Positions 225 to 64,000 of a stretch of 64,000 nucleotides of DNA are shown piece by piece. Position 1 is the first letter of the stretch. Each line of letters opens with the position of its first letter. The notes beneath the pieces were generated by a model. The model was not told where the DNA came from. It saw only the letters and a list, made by a program, of their open reading frames with translations, and searched no databases. Source of the DNA: Sphyrna mokarran (lineage: Eukaryota). Location of the stretch: positions 41,788,001 through 41,852,000 of the forward strand of contig JAGIQG010000021.1 of assembly GCA_024679065.1 (NCBI GenBank). The letters run 5' to 3'. The position numbers were made by a program, and so were the translations under genes.

Positions 225-491
225 TTAGAAGAGAGCTGAGGAGAAACTTCTCTCAGAAGGAGGTGAATCTCTGGAATTCTCTGCCCATTGAAGTGGTGGA
301 GGCTTCCTCGTTGAATATGTTTAAGTCACGGTAGATAGATTTCTGATAGATAAGGGAATTAAGGGTTATGGGGAGTGGGCTGGAAAGTGGAACTGATCCA
401 CTTCAGATCAGCCATGATCTTAATGAATGGCAGGGCAGACTTGAAGGGCTAGATGGCTTACTCCTGCTCCTATTTCTTAAGTTCTTATGTT
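225..491 (+). mobile_element. CR1 LINE 3' fragment, specific to MYH copy A
   Basis: LRRNFSQKEVNLWNSLP motif and CR1 tail (ctcctgctcctatttctta...). Absent from the paralogous intron near 53450. Confidence 0.75.
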
Positions 492-554
492 CATGATCTT
501 AAGCCTCAGCCACACTCTTCCCAAGTTCAAGTTGACATCAATGTCTGTACAAAC

Positions 555-16039
<15,485 letters not shown>

Positions 16040-17867: not shown

Positions 17868-17961
17868 CCAGAACACTGCATTTGCCTGAGGAAGACACAA
17901 GAGTGTTGAAAGCTCACAATTTTACTATCAAATAAATCGGTTGGATTAAAAATTGGTGTTG
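17868..17961 (+). mobile_element. Solo PLE 3'-end fragment with a degenerate hammerhead
   Basis: Aligns with about 30063-30155. Core is CTGAGGA-a-GACAC-aaga-GTGTT-GAAAGCTC. The 3' strand of stem I is mutated. Confidence 0.75.
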
Positions 17962-17971
17962 CTAAATTCTT

Positions 17972-19942
17972 ACATGGGGATTGTGCCAGAGGACTGGAGA
18001 GTGGCGAATATCAAGAAAGGGATTAAGAATGACTCTGGTAATTATAGGCCAATTAGTCTTACTTCAGTGGTAGGTAAATTAATGGAAAGAGTCCCAAGAG
18101 ATAGTATTTATGACAATTTGGAAAGATGCAGTTTAATCCAGCATAGTCAGCACGATTTTGTGAGGGGTAAATCCTGCCTCACAAATTTGATTGAATTCTT
18201 TGAGGAAGTAACTAAGTGTGTAGACAAAGGTAGAGCAGTTGATGTTGTAAACATGGATTTTAGTGAGGTATTTGCTAAGGTTCCTCATGGTAGGCTCATA
18301 AAGAAGGTAAGGAGATGTGGGATAGAAGAAAATTTGGCCGATTGGATAGAACAAAGAGAACAAAGAACAAAACAGCACAGGAAACAGGCTCTTTGGCCCA
18401 ACGATCCCGCGCCGCCACCCCGATGTTCCCACCTCTACCCGTGATCCCTGTCTATGTTTATAGATCTATGGGTTAAAAACCAAATTTGAGACAATTTAGG
18501 GAGAATTTGTTTTGCCAATCAGCCTAAGAGCACATCTTTGGGATGTAGGAGGAAACCGGAGCACCCGGAGAAAACCCACGCAAGCACGGGGAGAATGCAC
18601 AAACTCCCACAGACACAGGCCCAAATCCATGTATCTGCACAGCACAGCGATAGTCACTGAGCTGTTGTGTTGCCCATCAAATGGTCCAGGTCAAGCGTAT
18701 ACTAACGATGTGAAGCACTAAGATACTCTCGAAAAAAAAATCCAAGAGCAGCCCTCTCACGACCCATCGCGTGTATGCCCCTCGTTAGACAACAAGGTGG
18801 ACAAAGCACCTGTAGGATAAAAACAAGTACATCAATATCATCATCTATTTACACACTTCCCAGGGACTCCCAAGGCTCATTATCCGATAAGTAACTGGCT
18901 GTCTTGTAGAAGGCAGAGGGTGGTGGTGGAGAGAAAATTTTCAGACTGGAGGCCAGTTACCAGCGGTGTACCACAGAGATCAGTGCTGGATCCTGTGCTA
19001 TTTGTGATTTTTATTAATGATTTGGACAAGAGGGCTGAAGGAGGGGTTAGTAAATTTGCTGATGACACCAACTTTGGTGGAGTAGTGGATGAAATGGAGG
19101 GCTCTTGTAGGCTGCAAAGAGACATTGATAGGATGCAGAGCTGGGCTGAAAAGTGACAGATGGAGTTCAACTCTGATAAGTACGAGGTGATTCATTTTAG
19201 TAGGACAAACTTGAATACAGATTACATGGTCAATGGCAGGGGTCTGAGGAATGTGGAGAAACAAAGAGATCTCGGCATTCAGATCCACAGATCTCTGAAG
19301 ATTGCCACTCAATTGGATAGAACTGTGAAGAAGGCTTATAGTTTGTTAGCGTTTATTAACAGGGGGTTTGAGTTTAAGAGCGATGGGGTTATGTTGCAAT
19401 TATACAGGATCTTGGTGAGACCACATTTGGAATATTGTGTGCAGTTCTGGTCACCTCACTATAAGAAGGATGTGCAAGCATTGGAGACAGTGCAGAGAAG
19501 ATTTACCAGGATGCTGCCTCATTTGGCGGTGTAGGTCTTATGAGGAAAGGTTGAGGGAGCTGGGCCTTTTCTCTTTAGAGTGGAGGATGATGAGAGGCAC
19601 CTTAATAGAGGTTTGTAAGATGATGAGTGGATGTGCAGAGACTATTTCCTCTGGTGGATGTAGCTGTTATTAGGGGATGTAACTTTAAGGTTGATAGTGG
19701 GAGACATAGGAGGGCTGTCCGAGGTAGATTCTTTACTTAGAGAATGGTTGGGGTGTGGAATGCACTGCCTGCTGTGATAGTAGAGTCGGACACTTTAGGA
19801 ACTTTCAAGCGGTTATTGGATAGGTACATGGAACACACCAGATTGATAGGGAGTGAGATAGCTTGATCTTGGGTTCAGACATAGCTCGGTACAACGTAGA
19901 GGGCCGAAGCTCCTGTACTGTGCTGTACTGTCCTATGTTCTA
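17972..19942 (+). mobile_element. CR1 LINE, 5'-truncated and decayed
   Basis: [40 protein letters not shown] and RPHLEYCVQFWSP motifs. Tail ends tgtactgtcctatgttcta. Confidence 0.92.
18348..18880 (-). mobile_element. 5'-extended V-SINE derivative, copy 3 (apparently full length, nested in CR1)
   Basis: Same family. It interrupts the CR1 RT sequence. Confidence 0.85.
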
Positions 19943-24379: not shown

Positions 24380-25330
24380 TTGGTGACAAAGGCTATGCCC
24401 TCATGATAGCAAGGTTGTAGAGAGTGCTTTAGAATACCCATTCTTGTTAATCCTAGAGGATTCCTATGAGCAGTCCAGAAAGTTGTTTCATTATGTCAGT
24501 GTTTTCTTGGTACAGGATAGGTGTGTTATAATTATTGCAGTGTTGCAAGTATTCAAGAAGAAATATCTTTGAGAAAAGGTCGCACACCATGTGGTAGAGT
24601 TTGTGATTATACCTGTTTACTTACGGAGCTTGCCAAAGCCAGAAGTGCAGTTCATTGCACTTTACGTCATTGTGAATCCTGCCAGTCTGGCAAATTCATA
24701 TGGGGTGACGCGGTGGCACAGTGCGTAGCGCTGCCCTCTCAGAGTGTTCTGGGTTCAATTTATGGCTTAGGTCGCTACATGGAGTTTGCACATTCTCTCT
24801 GTGTCTGCATGGATTTCCTTTGAGTGCTCAGGTTTCTTCCCACATTCCAAAGATGTGTGGATTAAGATGATTGGCCATGCTAAATTGCCCCTTAGTGTCC
24901 CGGAACATGTAGGTTAGAGAGATTAGCAGAGTAAATGTTTGGGGAAAGGGCCTGGGTGTAACTGTTGTCGGTTCAGACTGGATGGGCAGAATGGCTTCCT
25001 CCTGTACTTTCTTCTGGATTTTTGGATTCTATGGATTTTATGATTTTCTAGTTTTGCATTTCTCTGGCATTTAAGAAGATGATGAAGGCCCCTCTCCAAC
25101 AAAGAGGCCTTGTCCACCTCTCTGATATAGCAAACAGCGGTGAACTGTGAGATGTTACTGATGTTCCCTCTTCATATCTGGGAAGATCCACTGGCATAGT
25201 AATTGAAGGCAGCAGTAACTTTGATAGCCAATGGCAGCATCATCCTCACCCTGGTATAAGACTGTAGATCAAGTTGTAGGAAGTGGCACAGTTCAGTAAC
25301 CATCACCTTGGTGAAATACAGCCTAAGAAG
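24380..25330 (-). pseudogene. PIF/Harbinger (HARBI1-like) transposase fossil, interrupted by a V-SINE
   Basis: Minus-strand translation RLYFTKVMVTELCHFLQLDLQ...LPLAIKVTAAFNYYASGSSQ*...NISQF...IREV, then ARLAGF..SAMNCT (a decayed GAIDCTH motif) and LYNLAIMRA. Confidence 0.72.
24702..25045 (+). mobile_element. HE1/V-SINE
   Basis: tRNA-like head, V-domain and tail. Confidence 0.82.
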
Positions 25331-26418
25331 CCACTCTGCTACTGGCTGAGGTTGCAGCAGGAGAAGTACTTCTTTAAAACTCTTTGTGGATAGGATTTTA
25401 TGTTGAAAGCCCTCTTGCTCCCTTTGCGTAATACATTTCCTCTTTATTTCCTGTGCTCCATTTCCTAATCATACTGCAAGCCAGAGAGGCAAAAACTATA
25501 GCTCTATTACTGAAGCTGACTTCTTCCTAACAGGCCAACTAGTTCCTCTAACCACCCTTGTCAAGAAATAGAACTGCTCCCTGGAAAATCCAAAAATCCT
25601 GTACTAACACAGACAGTACCTCCATCAATGCAGCAATAATTGCCCTAAAATTGGCCAGAAATATTTTGGTACACAATTTTTCAGTTTGGAGTCTGCACAG
25701 TATCTACACCATTGGTGCTAAAGAGGTCAGTTTTACAGCCATAATAGCTTGACAAGAAGTGCAGTGGATTGCATCTTACACCTGTGGCAAGCCAGCCAGT
25801 GATGTTAATCTGCGTGCCCACTCTCTCTCATTTCATCATGGGAAAGCTTATATATCACCCAATCCTGGCAAACATTGCATATCCTATGCATTTATGTAAA
25901 GCTGACAGTACCTCTGAGTTTCCTGGAAGAAATCAGAGGCCAAGCACCACAGGTAATTTGTGTCTGCGAGGTCCAATAAGCAATAACCTGCAATAAGCAG
26001 GTTTCATCTTGGAGCCGGGGGATATGTACTGTCCACTTGAAGTATCAATCTAACGCATCAGAAGTGCTGTTCCTTTGAAACACAAAGGAAGCTGAGCCTT
26101 TGTCTGTTCAATCTATTAAATGGGCATTGTTTGCGAGGGCTCAGCCATTCTGTTGCTCGCTTTACTGCTGGCCATTTGTAACCTCTTCCATATTTATAGC
26201 TGAAATGCTGTGCTTATTACTCCACCTCTGGTGAAGCCAAGAGTAACTATTGGCACCAAATAACGTGCTCCTCTATTTGATGAATTCAAGACTCTCATAA
26301 ACCAGGCATGTTTGTCAAACTATATGTCATGATGTAGAGATGCCGGCGTTGGACTGGGGTAAACTCAGTAAAGTTTCACAACACCAATTTTAAATCCAAC
26401 CAATTTATTTGATAGTAA

Positions 26419-26459
26419 ATTCGCGAGCTTTCGACACTATGTGCCTTCGTCAGGCAAAT
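26419..26459 (-). ncRNA. Minimal type I hammerhead ribozyme (mirror copy in the left PLE arm)
   Basis: Exact reverse complement of 30075-30115. Confidence 0.82.
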
Positions 26460-26673
26460 GCAGTGTTCTGGTCTGCAATAGCACTCATACCAACACAGAC
26501 AGTCATAGATTGCTGATTAGAATGCGAATCCTTACATCTAACCTGCTATTCAAGTGTTAAAGTGGCTAACAATGTGTGTGAAGGGAATCCTGAGCATTGG
26601 TTAGAGAATTGTGTATTTTCTCCAGATAGCATAGTAAGTGAGGTTTTTTGCTAACCCAGGCAAGTTACGGGGG

Positions 26674-28299
26674 TTACAGATAGTGTGTCATGAAGCCAAA
26701 ATCCCTATTAAGACCGTCCTCATATGTGCGGAACTTGGCTATCAGTCTCTGCTCAGCAACTCTGCGCTGTCGTGTGTCACGAAGGCCCCCTTGAAGAACA
26801 TTTACCCGCAGGTCGGAGGCCGAATGCCCATGACTGCTGAAGTGTTCGCCCACAGGAAGGGAACTGTTTTGCCTGGTGATTGTTGAGCGATGCTCATTCA
26901 TCCGCTGTCGTAGTGTCTGCATGGTCTCCCCAATGTACCATGCTTCGGGACATCCTTTCTTGCAACGTATTAGGTAGACAACGTTGGCCGAGTTGCAAGA
27001 GTATGTACCGTGTACCTGGTGAATGGTATCCTCACGTTTGATGATGTCGTCCATGTCTATGATCTGGCATGTCTTGCAGAGGTTGCTGTGGCAGGGTTGT
27101 GTGGTATTGTGGTCACTGTTCTCCTGAAGGTTGGGTAGTTTGCTGCGAACAATGATCTGATTGAGGTTGTGCGGTTGTCTGAAAGCAAGAAGTGGGGGGG
27201 TGGGGATGGCCCTAGCGAGATGTTCATCGTCATCAATGATATGTTGAAGACTCCGGAGAAGATGTCGTAGCTTCTCCGCTCCGGGGAAGTACTGGACAAC
27301 AAAGGGTACTCTGTCCACCATGTCCCATGTTCGTCTTCTGAGGAGGTCAGTGCGGTTTATCGTTGTGGCACGTCGGAACTGTCGATCGATGAGTCGAGTG
27401 CCATATCCTGTTCTCACGAGGGCATCCTTCAGCGTCTGGAGGTGTCTGTCATGATCCTCCTCATCTGAGCAAATTCTGTGTATACGGAGGGCTTGTCCAT
27501 AGGGAATGGCTTCTTTAACGTGCCTAGGGTGGAAGCTGGAGAAGTGGAGCATTGTGAGGTTGTCTGTCGGTTTTCGGTACAGTGAGGTGCTGGGGTGACC
27601 GTCCTTGATGGAGATGCGTATGTCCAAGAAAGCAACTGATTCTGGAGAATAGTCCGTGGTGAGTCTGATGGTGGGATGGAACTTGTTGATATCATCATAC
27701 AGTTGTTTCAATGATTGTTCACCATGAGTCCAAAGGAAAAAGATGTCATTAATGTATCTAGTATATAACCTTGGTTGAAGATCTCGTGTAGTGAAGAAGT
27801 CTTGTTCGAACCTGTGCATGAAGATGTTGGCATACTGAGGTGCAAATTTGGTCCCCATGGCTGTTCCATGTGTCTGGATGAAAAGCTGATTGTTGAAGGT
27901 GAAGACATTGTGGTCCAAGATGAAGCGGATGAGTTGTAAAATTGCATCCGGAAATTGACAATTGTTGGCATTGAGTACTGAGGCAGTTGCAGCAATACCA
28001 TCGTCGTGGGGGATGTTGGTGTAGAGCGCCGAGACATCCATTGTGACAAGGAGTGTCCCTGGTTCAACTGCTTCATGCGTGCTGAGTTTCTGTAGGAAGT
28101 CTGTAGTGTCAAGACAAAAGCTGGGGGTTCTTTGTACAATGGGTTTCAGGATGCCCTCGATATAGCCGGAGAGGTTCTCACACAGGGTCCCATTGCCCGA
28201 TACGATGGGACGGCCGGGTATGTTTGCCTTGTGTATCTTTGGGAGGCAGTAGAGATCTCCAATGCGGGGAGTACGTGGAATGAGAGCCCGGAGGGTGTT
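26674..28299 (-). pseudogene. 5'-truncated PLE polyprotein (RT plus GIY-YIG); frame open, catalytic YIDD mutated to YIND
   Basis: The frame is open from 28299 (NTLRALIPR...LYCLPKIHKANIPGRPIVS) through MDVSALYTNIPH, GTAMGT, RYINDIF, the Cys linker PCHSNLCKTC and VVYLIRC...WYIGET...RQRMNEH to the stop at 26674. Confidence 0.88.
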
Positions 28300-28301
28300 G
28301 T

Positions 28302-29861
28302 AACATACCTGGCCGTCCCATCGTATCGGGCAATGGGACCCTGTGTGAGAACCTCTCCGGCTATATCGAGGGCATCCTGAAACCCATTGTACAAAGTAGC
28401 CCCAGCTTTTGTCTTGACACTACGGACTTCCTACAGAAACTCAGCACGCATGAAGCAGTTGAACCAGGGACACTCCTTGTCACAATGGATGTCTCGGCGC
28501 TCTACACCAACATCCCCACGACGATGGTATTGCTGCAACTGCCTCAGTACTCAATGCCAACAACTGTCAGTTTCCGGATGCAATTTTACAACTCATCCGC
28601 TTCATCTTGGACCACAATGTCTTCACCTTCAACAATCAGCTTTTCATCCAGACACATGGAACAGCCATGGGGACCAAATTTGCACCTCAGTATGCCAACA
28701 TCTTCATGCACAGGTTCGAACAAGATTTCTTCACTACACGAGATCTTCAACCAAGGTTGTATACTAGATACATTGATGACATCTTTTTCCTTTGGACTCA
28801 TGGTGAACAATCATTGAAACAACTGTATGATGATATCAACAAGTTCCATCCCACCATCAGACTCACCACGGACTATTCTCCAGAATCAGTTGCTTTCTTG
28901 GACATACGCATCTCCATCAAGGACGGTCACCCCAGCACCTCACTGTACCGAAAACCGACAGACAACCTCACAATGCTCCACTTCTCCAGCTTCCACCCTA
29001 GACACGTTAAAGAAGCCATTCCCTATGGACCAGCCCTCTGTATATACAGAATTTGCTCAGATGAGGAGGATCGTGACAGACACCTCCAGACGCTGAAGGA
29101 TGCCCTCATGAGAACAGGATATGGCGCTCGACTCATCAATCGACAGTTCCAACGTGCCACAGCGATAAACCGCACTGACCTCCTCAGAAGACGAACACGG
29201 GACATGGTGGACTGAGTACCCTTTGTTGTCCAGTACTTCCCCGGAGCGGAGAAGCTACAACATCTTCTCCGGAGTCTTCAACATATCATTGATGACGATG
29301 AACATCTTGCTAGGGCCATCCTCACCACCCCCGCCCCCCCCCACTTCTTGCTTTCAGACAACCGCACAACCTCAATCAGATCATTGTTCGCAGCAAACTA
29401 CCCAACCTTCAGGAGAACAGTGACCACAATACCACACAACTCTGCCACAGCAACCTCTGCAAGACATGCCAGACCATAGACATGACGACATCATCAAACG
29501 TGAGAATGCCATTCACCAGGTACACGGTACATACTCTTGCAACTCGGCCAACGTTGTCTACCTAATACGTTGCAAAAAAGGATGTCCCAAAGCATGGTAC
29601 ATTGGGGAGACCATGCAGACACTACGACAGCGGATGAATGAACATCGCTCAACAATCACCAGGCAAAACAGTTCCCTTCCTGTGGGCAAACACTTCAGCA
29701 GTCATGGGCATTCGGCCTCCGACCTGTGGGTAAATGTTCTTCAAGGGGGCCTTCGTGACACACGACAGCGCAGAGTCGCTGAGCAGAGACTGATAGCCAA
29801 GTTCCGCACACATGAGGACGGTCTTAATAGGGATCTTGGCTTCATGACACACTATCTGTAA
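28302..29861 (+). pseudogene. 5'-truncated PLE polyprotein with intact YIDD but frameshifts and a stop
   Basis: ORF pieces 28485-, 28607-29215 (RYIDDIF, ending at an in-frame TGA) and 29466-29861 (GIY-YIG) match the left arm but lie in different frames. Confidence 0.88.
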
Positions 29862-30074
29862 CCCCGTAACTTGCCTGGGTTAGCAAAAAACCTCACTTAC
29901 TGTGCTATCTGGAGAAAATACACAATTCTCTAACCAATGCTCAGGATTCCCTTCACACACATTGTTAGCCACTTTAACACTTGAATAGCAGGTTAGATGT
30001 AAGGATTCGCATTCTAATCAGCAATCTATGATTGTCTGTGTTGGTATGAGTGCTATTGCAGACCAGAACACTGC

Positions 30075-30115
30075 ATTTGCCTGACGAAGGCACATAGTGT
30101 CGAAAGCTCGCGAAT
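30075..30115 (+). ncRNA. Minimal type I hammerhead ribozyme (PLE-associated)
   Basis: AUUUGC-CUGACGA-A-GGCAC-aua-GUGUC-GAA-AGCU-C^-GCGAAU. Stem I has 6 bp, stem II has 5 bp and stem III is the palindrome AGCU. Predicted cleavage after 30109. Confidence 0.82.
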
Positions 30116-32667
30116 TTACTATCAAATAAATTGGTTGGATTTAAAATTGGTGTTGTGAAACTTTACTGTGTCAGACTATATTCCAGAGGAAACTGAGAAA
30201 CTAGCTTGAGCATGAAATCTCTTTTGGGATCGAGCTTTCTGATGTTTTATAATAAAAATGCTACATAATCTCATCTCCATTTCACTGCTGATTTTAGTGC
30301 CTCCTGAAACCAGTGAAGAGTGGCTGTTAATTTAAAATGAGGATTCTAATGGCATTAAAGGAGTTGATTTACATTTGTTAATGAACATGCTGCCACTCCA
30401 CAATGAAACACTTGAATGCCCTGGTATCTACTGCCTTAAAAGAGGTGGTGGTCTGATTGTAAATAGTTCAGGTTACATTTTGCATCTTTAATCTTCCACC
30501 CTCTGCCACTGGCCTTGAGAGTGGTGGTGATGTAACATTGATATGTGAGTCCTTATCTTGTGAAGTTCATTCTGCCAACACAAAGCTGCCAGTTGGAAAG
30601 CTGAATAGTATGGCTGTTCACAATTTTAACTGCATGTGGGATATTTTCATTTCGTATCAGGAAAGATCTTTGTGCAAAATTGTGAACTGATCAACATGAC
30701 TTTAAAAGAACAAAACCAGTCAGTTTAATAAATACTCCAATATTCTAATGACGTCATTCTGATTAAAGAATGGCTACTTCGCCTGTAAATCCTATACACT
30801 ACTTGTTTTAGTGTTACTTTCATTCTTTTGAAGCAATTCTTCAGTAAAAATGAGGCAAAAAGCAACACTAGCAGGGATGTGAGAACCTCTCCCCAAAAGA
30901 AAATCTAGTGCTAACTTGATTAATACTAATTTGATAAGGAAATAATTACTCCAGGTTAAATGTACCATGTCAAAGTGAACAAGGGAATTCCATTTGAAGA
31001 GATTGAGTTTCATTCGGGATGCATAGATGAGAAATGTCACCCATTTGGACTCAGTGGTTAAGGCATTGAATAGACACTGCAACAATAAATCTCTATGCCA
31101 TAGGATCAGCCAGTTTGTGAGGTGCTACTGGCCCAAAACTTGTGTCAAACAAGAAGGCTGCAATTCATTAAATGCCTAGCAAGGTCAGCATTTATTGTCC
31201 ATCTTGATTTGCCTTGATGAAGGTGGCGATGAGCCGTCTTTCTGAGTCACAGCAGCTTATGTGAGGTAGATACATCCACAATCCTGAAAAATGACAGAGT
31301 TTCATGTGTTTTCACTCATTGATGATGAAGAAATAGCAGTATGATCCCAAGTCAGGATGTTGGGTAAGTTAATGGAAAACATGCATGTGGTAATGTTCCC
31401 ATACATTAGCAGTCCTTGATCTCCTAGTGGTAGAGGTCACAAATTTGAAAAGTGCTATCAAAAGATCATTGGCAGTTGCTAAAGTGTATTTTTTGATGTA
31501 ACACACTGCTGCCACTGTATGCTAGTGATGGAAGGATTGAATGTTTATAGTGGTAGATGAGGTACACCAATCAGGCTGCTTTAACCTAGATGATGGTAAC
31601 TTCTTGAGTATTGTTGGAGCTGCACTCATTCAAACCAAATTGGGAGAGTTCAGTCAAACTCAGGACTTGTACTTTTAGATGTTGAACTGGTCCTGGGGGG
31701 GGGGTCAAAAAGTAAGTTATTGGCTGCAGAATTTCAAGCTTCTGACCTGCTTCTTTTTGCCACAGTATTTAATAGTTGATCCAGTTAAGTTTCTAATCAG
31801 TGGTAACTCTCAGGAAGTTGTTGGTGGGGATTCAATGATGATGATGCTGTTGAATAACAAGGTGGATCATTTGATTGTCTTTTGCTGGAGATGGTAATGC
31901 CTTTTCACTTGTGTTGTGCAAATATTATCACTTCCACAAAAAATGCGAACTGCTTTGGAATCTGAGACTTTATTAAATTCTGTGAAATCATCAATGAAAA
32001 GCCCCATTTCTGACACGTTATGATAGAAAAAAATTCATCAATAAAGCAGTTCAAGAATATTAATCCTATATGCTACACGTGTTACACTTATGGCAATGTT
32101 CTGAAGCTAAGATGCTTGGCTTCCAACAATCACAAACAAGTTAGGCATGATTCCGCCCAGTTGAGAACTTTCTTCTTTGATTCTTGTTGACTTTAATTTC
32201 ATTAATGTTCCTTGATACCACACTTTGTTAGATACTGGCTTGATATCAAGGGCAATCACTCATCTCACCTCCAGAATTCATCTCTTTTGTACATGTTTGG
32301 ATCAAGGCTATAATGAGGTCAGAAGCCATGTTCCCTTGACAGAATCTAAAGTGATCTTAAATGAACAGGTGAGTAAATACCACTTGATATTCTTGACAAC
32401 AACTCCATTAGTTTGTTGATGACTGAGAGTAGAATGATGAAATGGTAATTAGCTATATTGGAGTTGTCCTGCTAAATGAGGACATTGAAGCCACTTGCAA
32501 ATATTGTCTGGGAGTACGCCTTTTTTTTTGGACTTCCTTGTCCTCTTCATTTTACATTCAGTTGACTCAACAGTTTGCATAATGTGCTGAATGTTATGTA
32601 TAGCACTTATGTTTTTATTATGCAAGCCATTTAGCAATTCAGTAGCATTGTTGCAGGTTTTTCATAA

Positions 32668-32976
32668 AATCATTGAATCCCCAGAGTGCAGAAGGAGGCT
32701 GTTCAGCTCATCAAATCTGCACCGATCACAATCCCATCCAGGCCCTATTTCCATAACCCCACATGTTTAACTTGCTAATCCGCCTGACAGTAGGGTCAAT
32801 TTAACATGGCTAATCAACCTAACCTGCACATCTTTGGACTGAGAGAGGAAACTGGACCACCCAGAGGAAACCCGCACAGACACAGGAAGAATGTGCAAAC
32901 TCCCCACAGTGACCAGAAGCCAGAATTGAACCTGGGTTCCCGGTGTTGTGAAGCAGCAGTGCTAGCTACTGCGCCC
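32668..32976 (-). mobile_element. HE1/V-SINE
   Basis: V-domain, B box and tail on the minus strand. Confidence 0.82.
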
Positions 32977-34056: not shown

Positions 34057-34198
34057 GGAGAGATTTAAGTAGATGTGAATGCTAATAATTGGTTAAATGA
34101 GAATATTTCTTTTCTTTCTCCCATTATTGTGTTTACATTCACAAGGACGCGTAAATTGACTCTCGGTATTCAATTTTTCATGTTAGCCAACACATGTT

Positions 34199-34510
34199 TT
34201 CATTGAATCCCCTACATTGCAAAATGAGGCCATTCGGCCCATTGAGTCTGCACCAACCACATTCCCACTCAGGCTCTATTCCTGCAACCTCACTTATTTA
34301 CCCAGCTAATCCCCCTGATACTAGGGTCAATTTAGCATGGCCAATCCACCTAATCCACACATCTTTGAGGCATGGGAGGAAACTGGAGCACCAGGAGGAA
34401 ACCCATGCAGACAAAGAGAGAATATGCAAACTCCACACAGACCTGAGGCCAGAATTGAACCCAGGGCCCTGATGCTGTGAGGCAGCAATACTAACCATTG
34501 TGCCACCATG
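34199..34510 (-). mobile_element. HE1/V-SINE
   Basis: V-domain, A and B boxes, and tail. Confidence 0.82.
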
Positions 34511-34657
34511 TGTCCATTTTCAATGATAAAGTATTTCTGCCATTCAATAATTTTGGTCTAATTCAAGCTTTTTTTTATATATTCCATTCTATTAGAAAGC
34601 CTTTCTTCTACAACTATACACTGCATTTCTCCCATTCTCTACTATCTTGAAGGCATT

Positions 34658-36399: not shown

Positions 36400-37185
36400 A
36401 TGAAAAGTATTGTATCTTGCATGCTAGACAGACAAAGCTGACCATATATTGAGAAGGAAAGGAGTGCAGAATGTAATGTTACAGTTATAGCTAGGGCATA
36501 GAGAAAGGTCAATTTAATGTAAGGTAGATTCATTCAAAAGTCTGATGGCAGCAGGGAAGAAGCTGTTCTTGAGTCGGTTGGTATGTGTTGTCAGACTTTT
36601 ATATCTGACAGAAGAAGTACGTCTCAGCTGTGTGGGATCCTTAATTATACTGGCCGTTTTATCGAGGCAGTGGGAAGTGTAGATGGAGTTAATGCTTGGG
36701 AGGCTGGTTTGAGTAATGGACTGGGCTTCATTCACGACTCTTTGTAGTTTCTTGCAGTCTTGGACAAAGCAGAAGCCATACCAAGCCATGATATAACCAG
36801 AAAAAGTGCCTTCTATAATGCATCTGGAAAGTTGGTGAGAGTCTTAGCTGACATGCCAAATTCCTTTAGTATTCCTACTCAGTAGAGGGCTGATGAGCTT
36901 TCTTAACTATAGTGTTGGCATGGAGGGACCAAGACAGGTTGTTGGTGATTTGGACAACTAAATGCATGAAACTCTTGACCAGTTCTACTTGATCCCAATT
37001 AATATAGACAGGGACACATCCTCCATTACACTTTCTGAAGTCGATGACAATCTCCTTTGTTTTGATGATATTGAGGGAGAGATTATTGTTGTCACACCAG
37101 TCACCAGATTCTCTATCTCTTTCCTGTATTCCATCTCATCATTGTTTGAGATTTGACCTACAACAGTGATGTCATCAGCAAACAT
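36400..37185 (-). mobile_element. Rex/Babar-like LINE 3' part
   Basis: FADDITVVGQISNNDEMEYRKEIENL and KLQRVVNEAQSITQTSLPSI...NSFFPAAIRLLN. Confidence 0.7.
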
Positions 37186-37745
37186 TTGCCATCCTCCAAT
37201 CGTCAGGCACCTCACTTCTGGTGTTGATGATTCAAATATCTCTGCTAGGGACCTATAATTTTCCTCCCCAGTTTTCCACAACATCCTGGGATGTACTTCA
37301 TCAAGTCCCAGAGATTTATTTATCTTGATGCACTTTAAGACTTCCAGCACTTCCTCCTCTGTAATATGTACGCTCCTCAAGATATCACTATTTATAGCCC
37401 CAAATTTCCTAACATCTAAGCCTTTCTCAACAGTAAATACTGATGAGAAATATTCTTTTAGGATCTCACCCATCTTTTGTGGATCCTCAAATAGATGACC
37501 TTATTGATCTTTAAGAGGACCTGCTCTCTCCCTAATTACTCTTTTGTCGTTTATGCACTTGTTGAAATTCTTTGGATTCTTTTTTGCCTTATCTGCCAAA
37601 ACAATCTCATGTCCCCTTTTTGCCCTCCTGATTTCTCTCTTAACTTTACTCCTACACCCTCTATACTCTTCAAGGAATCCACATGATCCAGCTGCCTGTG
37701 CATGTCATATGCATCCTTCTTCTTGACAAGGGCCTCAATATCCAT
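37186..37745 (-). mobile_element. CR1 fragment (EN-RT linker)
   Basis: MGEILKEYFSSVFTVEK...ITEEEVLEVLK. Confidence 0.7.
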
Positions 37746-37759
37746 ACTTCTATCAGCTT

Positions 37760-38269
37760 TGCCCTTTACAAAAGGCCTTGAGATGAAACATCCCAAGGCC
37801 TTGTTCATCATGGCTAGGGACTTCAATCAAGCAAAGTTCAAGAGTGTCCTAAAAAATAGCACCAACATGTGCCCTTTTCCACCAGAAGCCCAAACATCGT
37901 AGACCACTGCTACACAAACATTCTACCATTTTCTCGCCTGCCCATACTTTGGCAAATCAGATCACAATCTGTGCTCTTGCTCCTAGCTTGCAAGCAAAAA
38001 CTGAAACAGGAAAATCCATCAAAGAGAGTCATGCAGTATTGGTCTGGGGAATTGGGTGATCTCCTACAGGATTGGACCAGTAGACTGGTCAGTATTTAAA
38101 ACTCTGTGACCATCCTTCCAGTTCATACTGTAACTGACTTCATTAGTAGGTGTGTAGAAGACTGTGTGCCAAATAAGCAAATCAGTGTGTTTCCTGGAAT
38201 CTATGGATGAACACGGATATCCATTGCTTGCTGAAGTCCAGACGTTCAAGTCAGGCAACTCTGACATAT
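37760..38269 (+). mobile_element. Rex/Babar-like LINE endonuclease fragment
   Basis: LEMKHPKALFIMARDFNQA and TRSPNIVDHCYTNI. Confidence 0.65.
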
Positions 38270-38792
38270 AGAACAAAGAACAAAACAGCACAGGAAATAG
38301 GTCCTTTGGCCCAACGAGCCTGCGTCGCCACCTCGATGTTCCCACTTCTACCCATGACCACTGTCTATGTTTATAAAAATCTGCATTTGAACCAAATTTG
38401 GGAGACAATTTAGGGAGAATTTGTTTTGCCAATCAGCCTAAGAGCACATCTTTGGGGTGTGGGAGGAAACCGCAGCACCTGGAGAAAATCCATGCAAGCA
38501 TGGGGAGAATGCGCAAACTCCCACAGACACAGGCCCAAATCCATGTATCTGCACAGCACAGTGATAGTCACTGAGCTGTTGTGTTGCCCATCAACTGGTT
38601 CAGTTCAAGCATACACTAATTACGTGAAGCACTAGGATACTCTTGTAAAATCCAAGAGCAGCCCTCTCACAACCCATCGCGAATATGCCCCTTGTTAGAT
38701 AACAAGGCAGACTGAAGTACCTGTAGGATAAAACAGAAATACATCAATACCATTCACAATTTCACACTTCTCAGCGAACTCCCAAGGCTCAT
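38270..38792 (-). mobile_element. 5'-extended V-SINE derivative, copy 4 (apparently full length)
   Basis: Same family. Its 5' end coincides with that of copy 3 (atgagccttgggag). Confidence 0.85.
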
Positions 38793-38794
38793 GA

Positions 38795-39490
38795 TGCCTA
38801 TTTTAAATCAGTCTTCTATATCCCTCCATCCCTATTCTGTTCATGTGCCCACCTAAGTATCTCTTAAATAACTCCAGAGTGCCTGCCTCCACCACCTTAC
38901 TTGGCAATGCATTCCATACCCCCCCAACCCTTTGTGTGAAAAAACTCCGTCTAGCATCCAAATTATACCTTACCCCCCTCATCCTAAGCCTGTGACCCCT
39001 CATGATATTTGATTCCAACCTAGGGTAAAGCTTACTACTGTTTATCTATACCCCTCATTACACCGCTATTAGATCTCCTCTCAGTCTACGTCTTTCTAAA
39101 GAAAACAGCGTCAATTTGCCTAATCTGTCGTCGTAACTCAGACCTTCCATACCAGGCAGCATCCTGGTGAACCTCCTCTGCACTCTCTCCAGAGTCTCCA
39201 CATCCTTCCAGTAGTGAGGTGACCAGAACTGGACGCAATGTTCCAAATGAGGTCTAACCAACATTTTATACAACTGTAACATTAAAGGCCAGCTTTTGTA
39301 CTCTATACCCCCTTCCTATAAAGGCTAGCATACTATATGCTTTTTTCACAACTTTCTCTACCTGCTCTGCCACCTTCAGAGACTTGTGCACCTGCACACC
39401 CAGGTCCCTCTGCATTTCTATACTCTTAATATATCTACCCTTTATCATATACCTTCCCCCTACATTCTTTCTCTTGAAATGCATCATATA
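38795..39490 (-). mobile_element. CR1 LINE 3' part
   Basis: LQLYKMLVRPHLEHCVQFWSP and FFTQRVGGVWNALP. Confidence 0.85.
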
Positions 39491-40900: not shown

Positions 40901-43020
40901 TATTTTCCAGAGGGAAAGAGCAAGAGGACAATATTGGTGAAATATTAATGGGGAACACAGAGATGGCAGAGGCATCAAAACAAAATTTTTCCTGTCTTCA
41001 CAGCAGACAATAATGAAGATTTTTCAAGAGCTGTCGTTAGTACAGCGCAGCTCTTTGCAATAACCATCACAAGGAAGAAGGTATTGAATAAACTGATGGG
41101 ATCAAAGGCAGAAAAGTCTCTGGGACCTGATGGCCTGGATCCTAGCATATTTAAGGAGATGGCAGCAGAGAAAATGGATACGTTGATTGTGATATTTCAA
41201 AATTTATTGGAATGTGGTATGGTGCGGGTGAATTGGAAACACTAATGTGATACCCTTATTCAAAAAAGGAGAGCGGCAAAAAGTTGGAAACACTAGGCCA
41301 ATTAACTCAACCTCTTGTGGTGGGGAAATAGGTGGAATCAATCATTGAGGAGGAGATGACTCAGTATTTGGAAAGGCAAAGCTCAATCTATTATTGTCAG
41401 TATGATTTTATCATAGAAAGAAACCCTACAGTGCAGAAGGAGGCCATTCAGCCCATTGAGTCTGTGCTAACAATCCCACCCAATTCCTGTTCCCATAACC
41501 CACATATTTACTCTGCTAATTTCTCTAATCTATGCATCCCGGGATACTAAAGGGCATTCTGACATGGCCAGTCAACCGAACCCACACATTTTTGGGATGT
41601 GGAAGGAACCAGAGCACCTGGAGGAAACCCAAGCCAACAGAGAGAGAACATGCAAACTCCATACATACAATGACCCAAGCCAGGAATCGAACACAGGTCA
41701 CTGGAGCAGTGTTAATCACTATGCCACCATGCCGCCCCCACTGTGCACCATGCAGTCTTTTTATGAAGGGAGGGTCATGCTGGATAAACTTGTTTGAATA
41801 CTTTGAAGATATAACCAGCAAGGTGGATAGTGGGGAGCCTATATGTAAACATCCAGAAGGCATTTAACACGGTGCTGCATAAAAGCCTGATTCAGAAGGT
41901 AAGATTGCAGGGGATTGGGGGTAGAGATTGGATTGAGGATTGACTCTGACAGAAAGCAGAGAATTGGATTAAACAGGTCCTTCTCTGGCTGGCGAAATGT
42001 AACTAGTGGGGTTTTCAAGGGTCAGTCCTCAGACCTCACCTGTTTACAATCTATCCAAACGATTGCAAGCAGGGATAGAGTGTAACATAGCAAAATCTAT
42101 GGATGATACTAAAATAGGTGGGAAAGCAGGCAGTGGATATAAAGACGTTACAAACAGAAAAAAGATAGGCTAGGAAGTTGGGACAAAATTTAGTTTAATG
42201 TAGATAAGTGGTGTTTAATGTAGATAAGTGTGAGGTCATCCATTTTGGCAGAAGATATAGAAAGGCAAATTATGATCTAAATGGAAAGCAGATTCAAAAC
42301 GCATCTGGGCAAAGGAATCTGGGCGTTTCTGTTCGTGAATTGCAGAAAGTTAGTATGCAAGTGCATCATGTAATGAAAAAGGCAAATGGCATTTATTACA
42401 AAGGATCTGGAATACAAAAGTAGAAAAGTGCTGTTGCAATTATATAGAGTGTTGGTGAGACCACGTTTGGAGTATTATGTCCTGTTTTAGTCTCCTTATT
42501 TGAGCAAGAATGTGTCAGCATTGGAGGCACTGCAGAGGAGGTTCACTAGATTGATTCAGGAGATGAAGAAGTTAACATATGAGGAGAGATTAGACTATTT
42601 GGGTTTGGAGTTTAGAAGGATGGAGGGGAGATTTGATTGAGGTATATAAAATTTTAAAAGGGATTGATAAAGTAAATGTAGACCAAATGGTTCCTCTTAT
42701 GAAGCAATTTAGGCAAGAGGTCACAAGTATAGGTTGAGAGATGGCAGATTTAATACTGAGATGAGGAGGACTACTTCTTCCAAAAGGTGGCGAATTTGTG
42801 GAATTTTCCACCCCATAACACAATGGACTCTGAATTGTTGAAAGGTTTCAAAAGAGAGTTACAAACATATTTCTAATGAAAAAAAGGAACAAGCGATATG
42901 GGGAACAGGTGGGTAGATGGATTGGAGACCAGAGAGCGATCAGCCATAATCTGATTAAATGACGGAGCTGGTTCAATGAGCTGAATTTGCCTACTTTTGC
43001 TCTTAATTCATATTTCCAGG
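40901..43020 (+). mobile_element. Decayed CR1 LINE with a nested V-SINE (about 41412-41750, minus strand)
   Basis: KGGSCWINLFEYFEDITSKVD, FNVDKCEVIHFGR and a CR1 tail near 43000. Confidence 0.82.
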
Positions 43021-44444: not shown

Positions 44445-47235
44445 TCTCCCCCCCCCCCACCCCTCGGCCCCCCCGTTATGTCTTTTCTTTTTGCAATGTT
44501 ATTAAAGCAGGATGGCTAAAACACCATCCATCCCCCCCTCCCTCCACCCCCAATACCGCCCCTCCACCCCAGTATCATCCACCCTTCCCGCCGCCCCCAA
44601 CACCATTCAACTCACCTCCACCCCCAACACCATCCACTCCAAATCACTGCCCCAACACCACCCACCCCCTGCCCCAATATCACCCATCCACCTGCCTCCA
44701 ACACCACCCATCCCCTCCCACCCCCACACTCCCCCAACACCTCTGCCCAGCCCTGCTGCTCCCATATCCCTCGCATTTATGCTTCCACCACTCCTTCCCT
44801 CCACCCACCCCTGCCCTCACACCTACCCTTCCCCATCCCTCCATTCCACTCACCCTTCCCTTCACCCACCCCTCCCCTCAACTCCTACCCTCTCCCTCCT
44901 CTATCACTTCTCCCCTAACCCTACCCCTCCACTATCCCTCCCTTTCCCCATCCCTCATCCCTCCCCATCTCCTCCCCTACCTCTCTCCCGTCCCCACATC
45001 CCTATCCCTCCCACTTCCTCCTAACCTCCCACCCACACCTTAACCTCCCACCAACTCCACTGAACCCATCCCCTACCCTCCCACCCACCCCGCTACTCCT
45101 CCTCCTGTCCCATCCATCCCTCAATCCCTTCCCTTCCCTACACCCCAACTTCCCCTAACCCTCTACCCTTCCCCTAACCCTCTACCCTTCCTCTCCCCCA
45201 CCCTTCTCACCCCTTCACTCCCCCTCTACCTCTCCACCCACCCCGTCTATCCCACCCATTACCCCCACCCATTACCTCTCCCCCATTCCCTACACTTCTG
45301 CGCTTCCTCCCCTACTCCCTTCTCCACTCCCCCTATTCTGAAACCCCCTCCCCTACAACTTTCCACCCCCTCTACTGTTCCACTCCCTACACACTACCCC
45401 TCCCCATCCCCTTGCCTCCCCACTACCTTATCACTTCCCACACCTCCACCTTCTCAACCCCTACCATTCCGCTCTCCACCCTTCCCCTCTCCCACCCCTA
45501 CCCCTCTCCCACCCCTACCCCTCCTTTCCTCCCAAACCATATCAGTCTCCGTACCCCCTCCATTCCTACCTTCCCTCATTCATCTATCCTTCCCCTCCCT
45601 CCCTGACTCCACCCCTCCCCTACCCTTCCTCCCCATCTCTCCACTTCAACCCTCTCCTCCAGCCCTCCCCCTCCCACCTATACCTTCCCGCACTCCCTAA
45701 TCCTCCCCTCCCCATCCCTCCACTTCAACCTCTCCCGCAGCCCTCCCTCTCCCACCTACTCCTCCCCTTCCTTCTCCACACTCAACCTCTCTCCCATACC
45801 CTACCTCTCCCCTATGCCCTACTTCTCCTGCCAGTCTTACCCCCACCTCCTACTGCTCCCTCCATCCCATACCACTCCCCATATTCCTCCCCAAATCCTT
45901 ACTCCTGCCCCCACCCCTTACCTTACCCCACCATTACCCAACCGCTTATTCTATTCTTCTCCCACGTGTCCCCGATCCCCTAATCCTCCTCGAACCCCTC
46001 TCACCTCTACCCATCTCCCACCTCTGCCCAACCTGCAACCCATACCTCACTCCTCATCTCCCCAACCCTTCCCATTCTCAACCTATCCATTCCCCACCCT
46101 CTCCCCTTCCCTTCTTCATCCCTCCCCTATCCCTTCCCCCTTCCCACCTATCCTACCCCTCCTCCTGCCCCACCCTCCCCTCCCCTTCCCTACTCCTCCT
46201 CCTATCCCACCCCTTCCCCTCTACCCCCACCCCTTCCCCTCTATCCTCACCCCTTCCCCTGCCCCACCCCGTCACCCTTCTCCCCTTTCATTCCTTCGCC
46301 TCCTCACCCCTCCTCTACCCACCCCCTCATCTTTCTTCCCTCCCCCTCCTCTCCACATCCCTCCCCTTCCTCACCCTTCCCTTCCTCTCCACATCCCTTC
46401 CTCTTCCTCCTGCTCCCCTTCCTCCCCCTCCCCTTCCTCTTCTTCCTCTCCCTCCTCCCCTTTACCCTTCCTCCTCCCCTTTGCCCTCCCTCCTCCCCTC
46501 CACCTCTCCCCCCTCCTCCTCTTCACCCCTCCCTCCTCCCCTTTCCCCCTTCTGCTCCTCTCCCACTCCTCCCCTCCTCCACCTCCCTTCCCCTTTTCCT
46601 CTCCCTTTCTCTCCTCCTCTTCCCCCTTCTCCTTCCTGCTCTCCCTTCTTCCCCTCCCCTCACCTCCCCTCTATCCCCTCCCCTCCATCCCCTCCCCTCC
46701 CCTCTGTTCCCTCCCCTCTTATCCCTCCCCTGCCTGCCTACTCCTTTCTCTCTCTTTCCCCCACCTCCTCCCCTCCCCTTTCCACTCCCCTTCCTCACCT
46801 CCCTCTCTCCCACCTCCTTGTCCCCTCCCTCATATGCCCCTTCCTCCTCTCCCTCCTCTCCCTCCCCTCCCTCCCCATCCTTCTCCCTCCCCTCACCTCC
46901 TCCATCCTTCCTCCCACCCCTCACCTCCTCCCCTCCAAGCCCTCACCCCACTTCTCATCTCCTCCCCTCACTCCCCCTCATCCCTTCCCTCCCCCAACCC
47001 CTCCTCTCACCCCTCCCCCTCATCCCTCTCCTTCCCCTCACCCTCCTCACACCACTGCCCTCCTCCCCTCCCCTCACCACTCCCCCCCTCCCCCTCCCCT
47101 CACCACTCTCCCCCCTCCCCCTCCCCTCACCACTCTCCCCCCTCCCCTCCCCTCACCACTCTCTCCCCTCCCCTCACCACTCTCCCCCTCCCCTCACTCC
47201 TCCTCTGCCCCCTCACCACTTCTCCACCCTTTTCC
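44445..47235. repeat. 2.8 kb C-rich (plus strand) / G-rich (minus strand) low-complexity tract
   Basis: Almost no G on the plus strand. Composition grades from C/A/T to nearly pure C/T. The tract ends in degenerate cctcaccactctcccc units at about 47045-47220. Confidence 0.95.
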
Positions 47236-47249
47236 CTTACGTTCTTGTT

Positions 47250-47540
47250 GCCGTTGAACTTAGTGGCATGCTAGGCTATTTGAGAAGGCAGTTAAGCGTT
47301 AACCACATTGTTATGGGTCTGGAATCACATATAGGCCAGACTGGATAAAGATGGCAGATTTCCTTTCCTAGAGGACATTGGCAATGGTTTTTACAACAAT
47401 CGACGATTATTTCATGGTCACTATTACTGAGATTAACTTTTATTAATTAAATGGATTTGAACCTATATCCCTACAGCATTAGCCTGGGCATTTGGATTAC
47501 TAGTCAAGTGACAATACCACAACTTTTCTGCCTCCCCGTG
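47250..47540 (-). mobile_element. SacSINE1/DeuSINE-like fragment
   Basis: tRNA-like head (gtggtattgtcacttgactagtaatcc) shared with 51638-51915. Confidence 0.5.
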
Positions 47541-50123: not shown

Positions 50124-63065
<12,942 letters not shown>

Positions 63066-64000
63066 CTAATAAAATAGAAATGACAATCCAGTATATTTGT
63101 GTACAACATCTAATTTTATACTTGGAATGCGATAATGGAATAAACACTGAGAAGTAACATTTTCTTATGTTTAGTTCAGATGCCTTACGTTGGTGCTGGA
63201 ATGTTTTGTGATGCAGGGCTGGTGTCTCTAAGTCAAAGTCTCTAAGACTCTAAGTCAAAGCTCTGTGTTCAATCCCCACTGCAGGATTTCAAGTCTGAAA
63301 AAAGTTCATGCATAATATGAACTGACAGGTCACATATCAACCTGCATATCCTTTCAACACATGACACTGGCAGGCAGTAAGAATGGGAGAGATTCCTGGT
63401 CAACCTTATGATGGAAGGAATAATATTACTATGCAAAGCTCCTGACTGCACCATGAGTGTAAAATGCATATTGCCATAGAAACCCTGAGTGACCATAAAT
63501 CAATATATATGTATTTTCGATCACAAATTTTCAAAACAGTATTGAAGACAATACAGACGTCAGATTGACAAATGGAAAATTTTGTTCCTGTAACAAATAG
63601 GGAATGTTATGTCATCTCTTTCATTTATGCAACTCTAGCTCAGTTGGCTAGCTGACTAGGTTGTGATGCAGAATAATGTCTACAGCATGGGTCCAATTTT
63701 CATACTGGCTGTAATAGTTCATGGAGGCTTCTTTTCTCACCATGCCAGCTCAAGCTGTTTATAACCAACAGTCTCTCTCTCTCTCTATATATATATTGGA
63801 GAGAGAGATACCTATAGTCCGTTGTGACTATGCCCAAAATGAGAGTACTCGCACTCGTTTATATCACAGGATATCATACTTTACTTTTTAATTGCAATCA
63901 GTCACGTTTTATGTATGCAGAGTAATTATGATGTAACATTTGTTGTATTAGTTGTATCCTGAGAAGGATTCCTCTGCCATTTTTCAGGGATTGCCATCCT

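What the first reader, a model, noticed from the sequence alone, without database searches (positions are those of the whole stretch)
26313..30181. 3.85 kb palindromic Penelope-like insertion: two 5'-truncated copies joined at their 5' ends, tails outward, inside one candidate TSD
Seen in the sequence: inverted arms of about 1.86 kb each surround a 77 bp spacer, which is simply extra 5' coding sequence of the left copy. A 13 bp direct repeat with one mismatch flanks the whole structure, and the left arm has about 40 nt more 3' terminus than the right. Established knowledge: PLEs encode RT plus GIY-YIG and are known to form inverted arrangements. Inference: this was a single event in which both target strands primed reverse transcription from an element 3' end and the two cDNAs were joined in the middle. 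That differs from L1 twin priming, where the two parts do not overlap. Arm divergence would then date the insertion in the way LTR pairs do, and read-through transcription would make about 1.9 kb of dsRNA in the MYH intergenic region.
Basis: partly seen in the sequence, partly recalled or inferred. Interest (0 to 1): 0.75.

Follow-up and report, generated by a model that had tools for sequence, protein, structure and literature searches.

The report
Head-to-head Penelope retroelement palindrome
Two shortened copies of a shark-type Penelope jumping gene sit head to head as one 3.8-kb palindrome between two myosin genes, which is the already described way these elements insert, and its centre likely formed when the first DNA copy folded back on itself.

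Summary
The palindrome is real. Two 5'-truncated copies of an RT + GIY-YIG Penelope-like element (Neptune-type motifs, closest relatives in sharks) lie head to head, with 37 substitutions in 1,856 aligned bases (2.0%), inside a 13-bp TSD with one mismatch; one end has a 40-nt tail. A contig from related organism F follows the left flank to the last TSD base and then leaves the element, as an empty site would. Both arms share two bases carried by about 1% of the family, so one event from one source is well supported. Correction: the 77-bp spacer is 75 nt of ORF plus a 2-nt filler, and both arms start with the same AACA. The centre therefore looks like a snap-back hairpin that slipped or lost 75 nt. 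I slightly prefer fold-back of one cDNA (0.5) over two cDNAs joined (0.38); sequence cannot separate them. An inverted truncated copy, TSD and one-sided 30-40 nt tail are published PLE hallmarks, and this scan noted the same arrangement before in another genome. No listed contig spans the centre, and the dsRNA idea is untested. Ordinary kind, unusually clean example.

The parts
26313..26325 (+). Left copy of the 13-bp target-site duplication
   Evidence: Sequence; organism F contig aligns up to 26325 and then departs (table 8, record 12)
26326..26365 (-). 40-nt tail, present on the left arm only; it ends a few bases past an ATG (26330-26328) that may be the start codon of the next unit of a tandem template (inferred)
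   Evidence: hundreds of family contigs have unrelated flanks beginning at 26326-26330 (table 7)
26326..28299 (-). Left arm: 5'-truncated PLE copy, 1,974 nt
26429..26453 (-). Minimal hammerhead-like core (CUGACGA, 5-bp stem II, GAAA) in the left pLTR
   Evidence: Pattern scan and stem fold; no Rfam match; cleavage untested
26674..28299 (-). Open 541-codon 3' part of the ORF: RT, CX4CxxC linker, GIY-YIG-type EN with CCHH; catalytic motif reads YIND instead of YIDD
28225..28299 (-). 75 nt of ORF present only in the left arm, bounded by the direct 4-mer AACA
28300..28301 (.). 2-nt filler GT at the inversion junction, matching neither copy
   Evidence: Family continuation at 28299 differs (table 7)
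28302..30168 (+). Right arm: 5'-truncated, tail-less copy, 1,867 nt; frame broken near 28514, 29322-29335 and 29484, stop codon at 29213
30081..30105 (+). Hammerhead-like core in the right pLTR
30169..30181 (+). Right copy of the target-site duplication (one mismatch)

Best explanation
This is a pair of 5'-truncated copies of an endonuclease-bearing Penelope-like retroelement joined head to head inside a 13-bp direct repeat, likely made in one insertion event in which the first cDNA folded back on itself and was copied. Inferred steps: (1) the GIY-YIG endonuclease nicked both strands 13 nt apart; (2) the top-strand 3' end primed reverse transcription at the family's main 3' start site (tail end, 26326-26330) and ran to 28299; (3) two untemplated bases were added, the end snapped back and copied its own TGTT into AACA, and it either slipped at once to the next TGTT 75 nt back on the same cDNA or formed a perfect hairpin that later lost 75 nt between the two AACA; (4) copying ran back along the cDNA; (5) the bottom-strand 3' end engaged at the second, tail-less site 40 nt inside, and fill-in left the TSD. 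Both arms are now dead and decay neutrally. Single event of the known PLE inverted type: about 0.9. Fold-back of one cDNA as the origin of the centre: about 0.5.
For: Shown: TSD abutting both ends, 1 of 2,986 random pairs as good. Organism F contig (1,556 nt) aligns 26128-26325 and carries 1,354 further letters unlike the element (record 12). Of the 12 element positions shown table 3, the arms agree at 8, including 26627 and 27160 where 98.8% and 98.7% of X1 family depth has another base; at the other 4 the right arm has the majority base. Left end coincides with the commonest listed family end (X1: 416, 538, 395 contigs at 26328-26330; X12: 281, 311, 339, 279 at 26326 and 26328-26330). A separate related fragment at 17868-17973 ends 2 nt from the right arm's end point. 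Right arm is nested in the left at both ends. Both arms start with AACA, found at 20 of 1,969 other element positions; random ORF pairs match for 4 nt in 0.5% of trials. Literature: palindromic head-to-head junctions in PLEs were read as self-priming (PMC3846280, passages); both-strand extension and two RT start sites bounding the tail (PMC11167929, main text); perfect palindromes acquire central deletions (PMC8701086, passages).
Against: Snap-back synthesis of AACA followed by annealing to the TGTT end of a second cDNA (SD-MMEJ type, PMC5728401 passages) gives the same junction. The 4 opposite-strand joints shown for X1 (of 15 joints shown, 387 hidden) have offsets of 403-876 nt and no shared letters, so near-equal arms are not the rule among those shown; their orientation is not given. 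Two independent truncations would fall within 75 nt in 6-9% of cases, and this locus was picked for being symmetric. The 4-nt stem has no stable fold on its own. The AACA test was made after seeing the junction. No listed contig spans the centre; X1's flank contig reaches only 25 nt into the element, under the tool's 31-nt rule, and X1 may be the source sample. The letters that follow 26325 in organism F were not shown. The right end's position was not among the 20 loose-end rows shown (4,694 hidden).
Confidence: 0.5

Rival explanations
1. One reading: both nicked target strands primed reverse transcription on two RNA templates (or two units of one tandem transcript), at the tail site and at the tail-less site. 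The two cDNAs stopped independently and were joined end to end, by an RT template jump after untemplated GT or by snap-back-assisted end joining at TGTT.
For: The anole PLE protein cuts and extends both strands, starts at two sites with no strand difference, and is predicted to be a dimer (PMC11167929). Both outer ends match family end points. The four opposite-strand joints shown have long offsets and no shared letters. Shared rare bases fit two templates from one source locus.
Against: Needs two truncations within 75 nt (6-9% by chance) and nesting at both ends; the published reading of PLE junction palindromes is self-priming (PMC3846280). No arm difference at any of the 6 family-polymorphic non-CpG-decay sites shown, though this is also expected from one source.
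Confidence: 0.38
2. Two independent insertions at one site, or one insertion followed by a later fold-back rearrangement of the chromosome, with gene conversion making the arms alike.
For: The family is very abundant (154,972 X1 contigs laid). Differences are unevenly spread along the arms (2, 8, 6, 12, 3, 6 per sixth; p = 0.06). Conversion between palindrome arms is known (PMC8981503, abstract in search listing only).
Against: One TSD around the whole unit and none at the centre; palindrome limits coincide with family end points rather than running into flank; one-sided tail as in published PLE units.
Confidence: 0.08
3. Assembly artefact from a fold-back read or a misjoin of two family copies.
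For: No listed contig spans the centre or bridges the left junction by 31 nt.
Against: Arms differ at 37 sites with a 33:4 transition bias and 15 CpG changes, unlike read error; a TSD links the two flanks; the relative's contig stops at the TSD's last base.
Confidence: 0.04

Closest known systems
Canonical EN+ PLE insertion unit with an adjacent inverted 5'-truncated copy, TSD and one-sided tail (PMC8557442 Fig. 2 legend; Adineta vaga Pen2/Pen2a, PMC3846280)
   Same: Head-to-head inverted copy, TSD around the whole unit (8-10 bp in A. vaga, 13 here), 30-40 nt tail on one end only, short palindrome at the inverted junction.
   Different: No direct partial tandem here; both copies are cut inside the RT region and are almost equal (1.97 and 1.87 kb) rather than a short inverted pLTR beside a long copy. 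PMC3846280 also describes long tandem/inverted structures in Pen3/4.
Neptune clade of PLEs (shark relatives annotated as uncharacterized proteins in Heptranchias, Scyliorhinus, Mustelus)
   Same: C-terminal EN with CCHH, CX2-5CxxC linker, DKG motif in longer relatives, 83-86% protein identity to the top four shark hits.
   Different: Clade not tested by phylogeny; Nematis shares the linker motif.
Poseidon of Anolis carolinensis (PAc, PMC11167929)
   Same: Two 3' end points separated by a tail; hammerhead in the pLTR; AT-rich target.
   Different: Different clade (no linker Zn-finger in Penelope/Poseidon). PAc start sites lie 111-118 nt into the ORF, with the hammerhead at the ORF start; here the tail ends at a candidate ATG about 100 nt downstream of the hammerhead core.
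L1 twin priming (PMC5668948, passages)
   Same: Both target strands proposed to prime; inversion, TSD and small junction indels.
   Different: [quoted passage not shown]

Membership tests
EN+ Penelope-like element | Single ORF with RT and C-terminal GIY-YIG endonuclease | tested here: met
   RVT_1 E 1.5e-8 above cut-off; GIY-YIG E 2.2e-4, 21.9 bits, just under the 22.6 cut-off; one open frame of 541 codons
EN+ Penelope-like element | CCHH motif with two cysteines between GIY and YIG | tested here: met
   VVYLIRCKKGCPEAWYIG followed by two His (NEH, GEHF) in P0001; definition from PMC8557442
EN+ Penelope-like element | DKG motif upstream of the RT core | tested here: inconclusive
   Lost by truncation in the window; present (ADKG) in relatives P0002, P0003, P0005-P0007
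EN+ Penelope-like element | Hammerhead motif in the pLTR | tested here: inconclusive
   Core CUGACGA-stem II-GAAA in both arms and in the fragment at 17886, but the loose pattern hit 13 places in the window, Rfam gave no match and free folding did not give the hammerhead
EN+ Penelope-like element | Inverted 5'-truncated copy adjacent to the 5' end, TSD, 30-40 nt tail on one end | tested here: met
EN+ Penelope-like element | Direct partial tandem (pLTR-ORF-pLTR) in full-length units | tested here: inconclusive
   Neither copy reaches the ORF start (full-length relatives are about 880 aa), so no upstream pLTR can be present; no genome was held to look elsewhere
Neptune clade | CX2-5CxxC linker between RT and EN | tested here: met
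   CHSNLCKTC at residues 403-411; excludes Penelope/Poseidon, not Nematis
Neptune clade | RT phylogeny with reference clades | not tested
   No labelled reference set was held; assignment rests on the motif and on Neptune and Poseidon being the clades reported in vertebrates (10.64898/2026.07.22.740005, passages)
L1-type twin priming product | Inverted and direct parts come from different, non-overlapping parts of one copy | tested here: not met
   Right arm is wholly contained in the left arm

The most novel reading that the evidence does not exclude
The unit is the fossil of a perfect 1.9-kb cDNA hairpin with a 2-nt loop: PLE inverted copies arise by snap-back self-priming of the first cDNA as the route to the second strand, with the opposite target strand captured at the tail-less site. 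With many thousands of family contigs in sharks, junction offsets, filler and arm identity across palindromic pairs would directly test this unresolved step of PLE transposition and give an LTR-like clock.
Probability: 0.35. Interest if true: 0.55.

Novelty: new member of a known kind. Interest (0 to 1): 0.27.

Why it matters
The structure itself is ordinary for PLEs. Its value is as a clean specimen: both outer ends, the TSD, the junction filler and a probable empty site can be read, and how PLEs form inverted copies is still open (PMC8557442 section 15 names it as unresolved; PMC11167929 leaves second-strand synthesis unvalidated). A survey of such pairs in this abundant shark family could decide between fold-back and two-cDNA joining. 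A 1.9-kb inverted repeat 10 kb upstream of an MYH gene could form dsRNA or a hairpin, but nothing here shows that it does.

Tried and rejected
Whole-genome survey: no genome held. Rfam found no ribozyme in 26200-30300; its only hit was a chance lncRNA match, E 3.2. Free folding of the pLTR gave z-scores near 0 and not the hammerhead. No PDB relative of a full-length homologue. Microhomology priming by element sequence upstream of the right arm: rejected, the bases before AACA (GGCA) do not match the observed TTGT. Selection on the arms: 11 synonymous against 24 non-synonymous or nonsense changes, in line with neutral decay. Flank continuity through an older repeat in the window: no usable match across the site. 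No TSD found around the fragment at 17868-17973, so its end point is weak evidence. Earlier-finding look-ups by sequence and by place returned nothing. [quoted passage not shown]
Full report
OBSERVATION. The inverted repeat is present as described. Global alignment of the arms gives 1,856 aligned bases with 37 substitutions (2.0%, 95% interval 1.4-2.7%), 33 transitions and 4 transversions, 15 at CpG, and 5 internal gap segments, two of which are probably one 11-nt expansion in a C-rich tract. The right arm lies wholly inside the left: the left has 40 extra 3' bases and extra 5' bases. A 13-nt direct repeat with one mismatch abuts both outer ends; 1 of 2,986 random position pairs of the window did as well. 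The unit lies between two minus-strand myosin heavy-chain genes, about 10 kb upstream of the first myosin-coding exon found (about 16048).

WHAT IT IS. [quoted passage not shown] It has the CCHH motif and a CX4CxxC linker, which PMC8557442 gives for Neptune and Nematis and not for Penelope/Poseidon. A search found 932 homologues among 6,529 candidates; the top four are shark proteins at 83-86% identity, and full-length relatives are about 880 aa, so both copies lack roughly the first 340 codons. The left copy reads YIND where 64 of the 68 stored proteins with that motif read YIDD; the right copy has frameshifts and a stop. Arm differences in the ORF are 11 synonymous and 24 not, as for neutral decay. 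A minimal hammerhead-like core sits in each pLTR; Rfam did not detect it and it is not shown to cleave. The host is inferred to be a cartilaginous fish from the homologues; no genome was held.

EVIDENCE FROM PUBLIC RUNS. I laid 4 of the 24 listed runs on 24900-28400, that is left flank, left arm and centre; the right flank was not examined, all runs are contigs, and most table rows were hidden. (a) The family is very abundant in organisms A, B and F (154,972, 21,517 and 95,930 contigs laid; not copy numbers). (b) In organism F a 1,556-nt contig aligns to 26128-26325 with its letters 1355-1555 and carries 1,354 more letters that do not fit the element. I read its orientation from the 30-nt overlap of records 9, 10 and 11. 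It stops on the last base of the left TSD, as an empty site should, but the onward letters were not printed, so the join to 30182 is not verified. (c) Flank divergence to F is 102 of 1,399 letters (7.3%; records 9, 11, 12; record 10, a more divergent overlap of record 9, was left out), so the arms are about 0.27 as divergent as the two species (0.18 if CpG changes are dropped from the arms only): the insertion is younger than that split, unless gene conversion has reset the arms. (d) Hundreds of contigs in X1 and X12 have unrelated flanks starting at 26326-26330, so the left end is a main 3' end of the family. (e) Of 12 element positions shown (40 of 455 rows shown in all), the arms agree at 8, two of them bases held by about 1% of X1 family depth (26627, a non-CpG transition, and 27160, a transversion); at the other 4 the left arm departs and the right has the majority base. 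The arms thus come from one source. (f) Family contigs leave the window at 28299 and continue in the upstream ORF, so 28300-28301 is filler. (g) Against a neat picture: no listed piece spans the centre, X1's flank contig enters the element by only 25 nt, X1 may be the source sample, and the 4 opposite-strand joints among the 15 shown (387 hidden) have offsets of 468, 876, 620 and 403 nt with no shared letters and unknown orientation.

THE ENDS. The tail is 40 nt and ends just past an ATG; that this is the start codon of a following unit is inference. A related fragment at 17868-17973 ends 2 nt short of the point where the right arm ends, a single weak case that the tail-less end is also a recurring end. 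This matches PMC11167929, where an anole PLE protein nicks and extends both strands and starts at two sites whose interval is the tail.

THE CENTRE. The top strand reads GGGTGTT-GT-AACATACC. Both arms begin, in sense, with AACA, 75 nt apart in the element; AACA occurs at 20 of 1,969 other positions and random ORF pairs match for 4 nt in 0.5% of trials (the test was made after seeing the junction). The junction is therefore what one gets from a perfect hairpin with a 2-nt loop after a slip or deletion between two AACA. Central deletions in perfect palindromes are known (PMC8701086). The same letters also result if the snapped-back end anneals to the TGTT end of a second cDNA, as in snap-back SD-MMEJ (PMC5728401). 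Cis and trans cannot be separated from this sequence.

MECHANISM. Shown: geometry, TSD, shared source, end positions, filler. Inferred: staggered nicks 13 nt apart; top-strand priming at the tail end; synthesis to 28299; untemplated GT and snap-back; copying back along the same cDNA; capture of the bottom strand at the tail-less site; fill-in. Fold-back is favoured by nesting at both ends, closeness of the two truncations (6-9% by chance, weakened because the locus was chosen for its symmetry), the one-sided tail and the published self-priming reading of PLE junction palindromes. Two cDNAs are favoured by the in vitro both-strand extension and by the long offsets of the few other joints seen. 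Independent insertions (0.08) and artefact (0.04) fit poorly.

COMPARISON WITH WHAT IS KNOWN. [quoted passage not shown] PMC3846280 shows such units with 8-10 bp TSDs, an empty site, head-to-head as the most frequent inverted arrangement, and palindromes at the junction read as self-priming. The locus works like these and meets the tested features of an EN+ PLE; Neptune membership rests on a motif, not a tree. It differs only in having two long, near-equal arms and no direct tandem. It is not L1 twin priming (PMC5668948).

WHAT I SAW OF EACH PAPER. PMC11167929: parts 1-2 of 4 (main text and start of methods). PMC8557442: passages and section 15. Passages only: PMC3846280, PMC8969392, PMC6155905, 10.64898/2026.07.22.740005, PMC8701086, PMC5728401, PMC5668948. 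PMC8981503: search listing only. No figures or supplements were seen; the supplements of PMC3846280, PMC8557442 and PMC11167929 may hold comparable long palindromes or end counts. The hammerhead core pattern, the myosin motifs used to find exons, RT untemplated addition with template jumping, and the SINE, CR1 and Harbinger labels are recalled, not from a call.

VERDICT. Real, single-event, known architecture; new member of a known kind; interest 0.27. The boldest reading left open, that it is a relic of a perfect cDNA hairpin and a handle on the unresolved second-strand step of PLEs, has probability about 0.35 and would merit 0.55. The dsRNA idea is untested.

Noticed in passing
Run X8 (organism E) laid on window 26373-28299: Only 13 contigs were laid, yet pieces cover most of the left arm at about 96-98% identity (e.g. 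743 nt with 15 differences) and none covers the flank. Seven runs of organism E from 5 samples and 3 studies hold 0.24-0.28 of the words (only X8 laid). A low-copy, near-identical element in a genome without the flank could be horizontal transfer or contaminating DNA.
   Followed up: no
window 17868-17973 (+): Short pLTR fragment of a related subfamily (89% identity), starting about 18 nt upstream of the hammerhead core and ending at the tail-less site, directly before an RT-bearing repeat; no TSD found.
   Followed up: partly
window 490-12170 and 53454-63747: Two tandem MYH paralogues about 52 kb apart, with stretches of 80-94% identity that include introns (3.36 kb at 94%) and one 300-nt block at 100% (6022-6321 / 57947-58246), suggesting recent duplication or gene conversion.
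   Followed up: no
window 44500-47350: About 2.8 kb of pyrimidine-rich low-complexity sequence with GC skew near -0.7 between the MYH genes; possible triplex or G-quadruplex former.
   Followed up: no
window 17950-19531 and 36988-37500: Decayed RT-coding repeat pieces (RVT_1 hits at 17950 and 18821), CR1-like by recall, interrupted by a repeat family with copies at 10457-10850, 12523-12950, 18350-18880 and 38264-38795.
   Followed up: no
window 25172-25468 (-): Short frame that resembles a Harbinger-type transposase piece by recall; no Pfam match.
   Followed up: partly
window 1663-1956, 6877-7184, 24712-25043, 32670-32975, 34194-34525, 41422-41728, 58795-59131: Dispersed repeat of about 300 nt at 69-76% identity between most copies, SINE-like by recall.
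   Followed up: no
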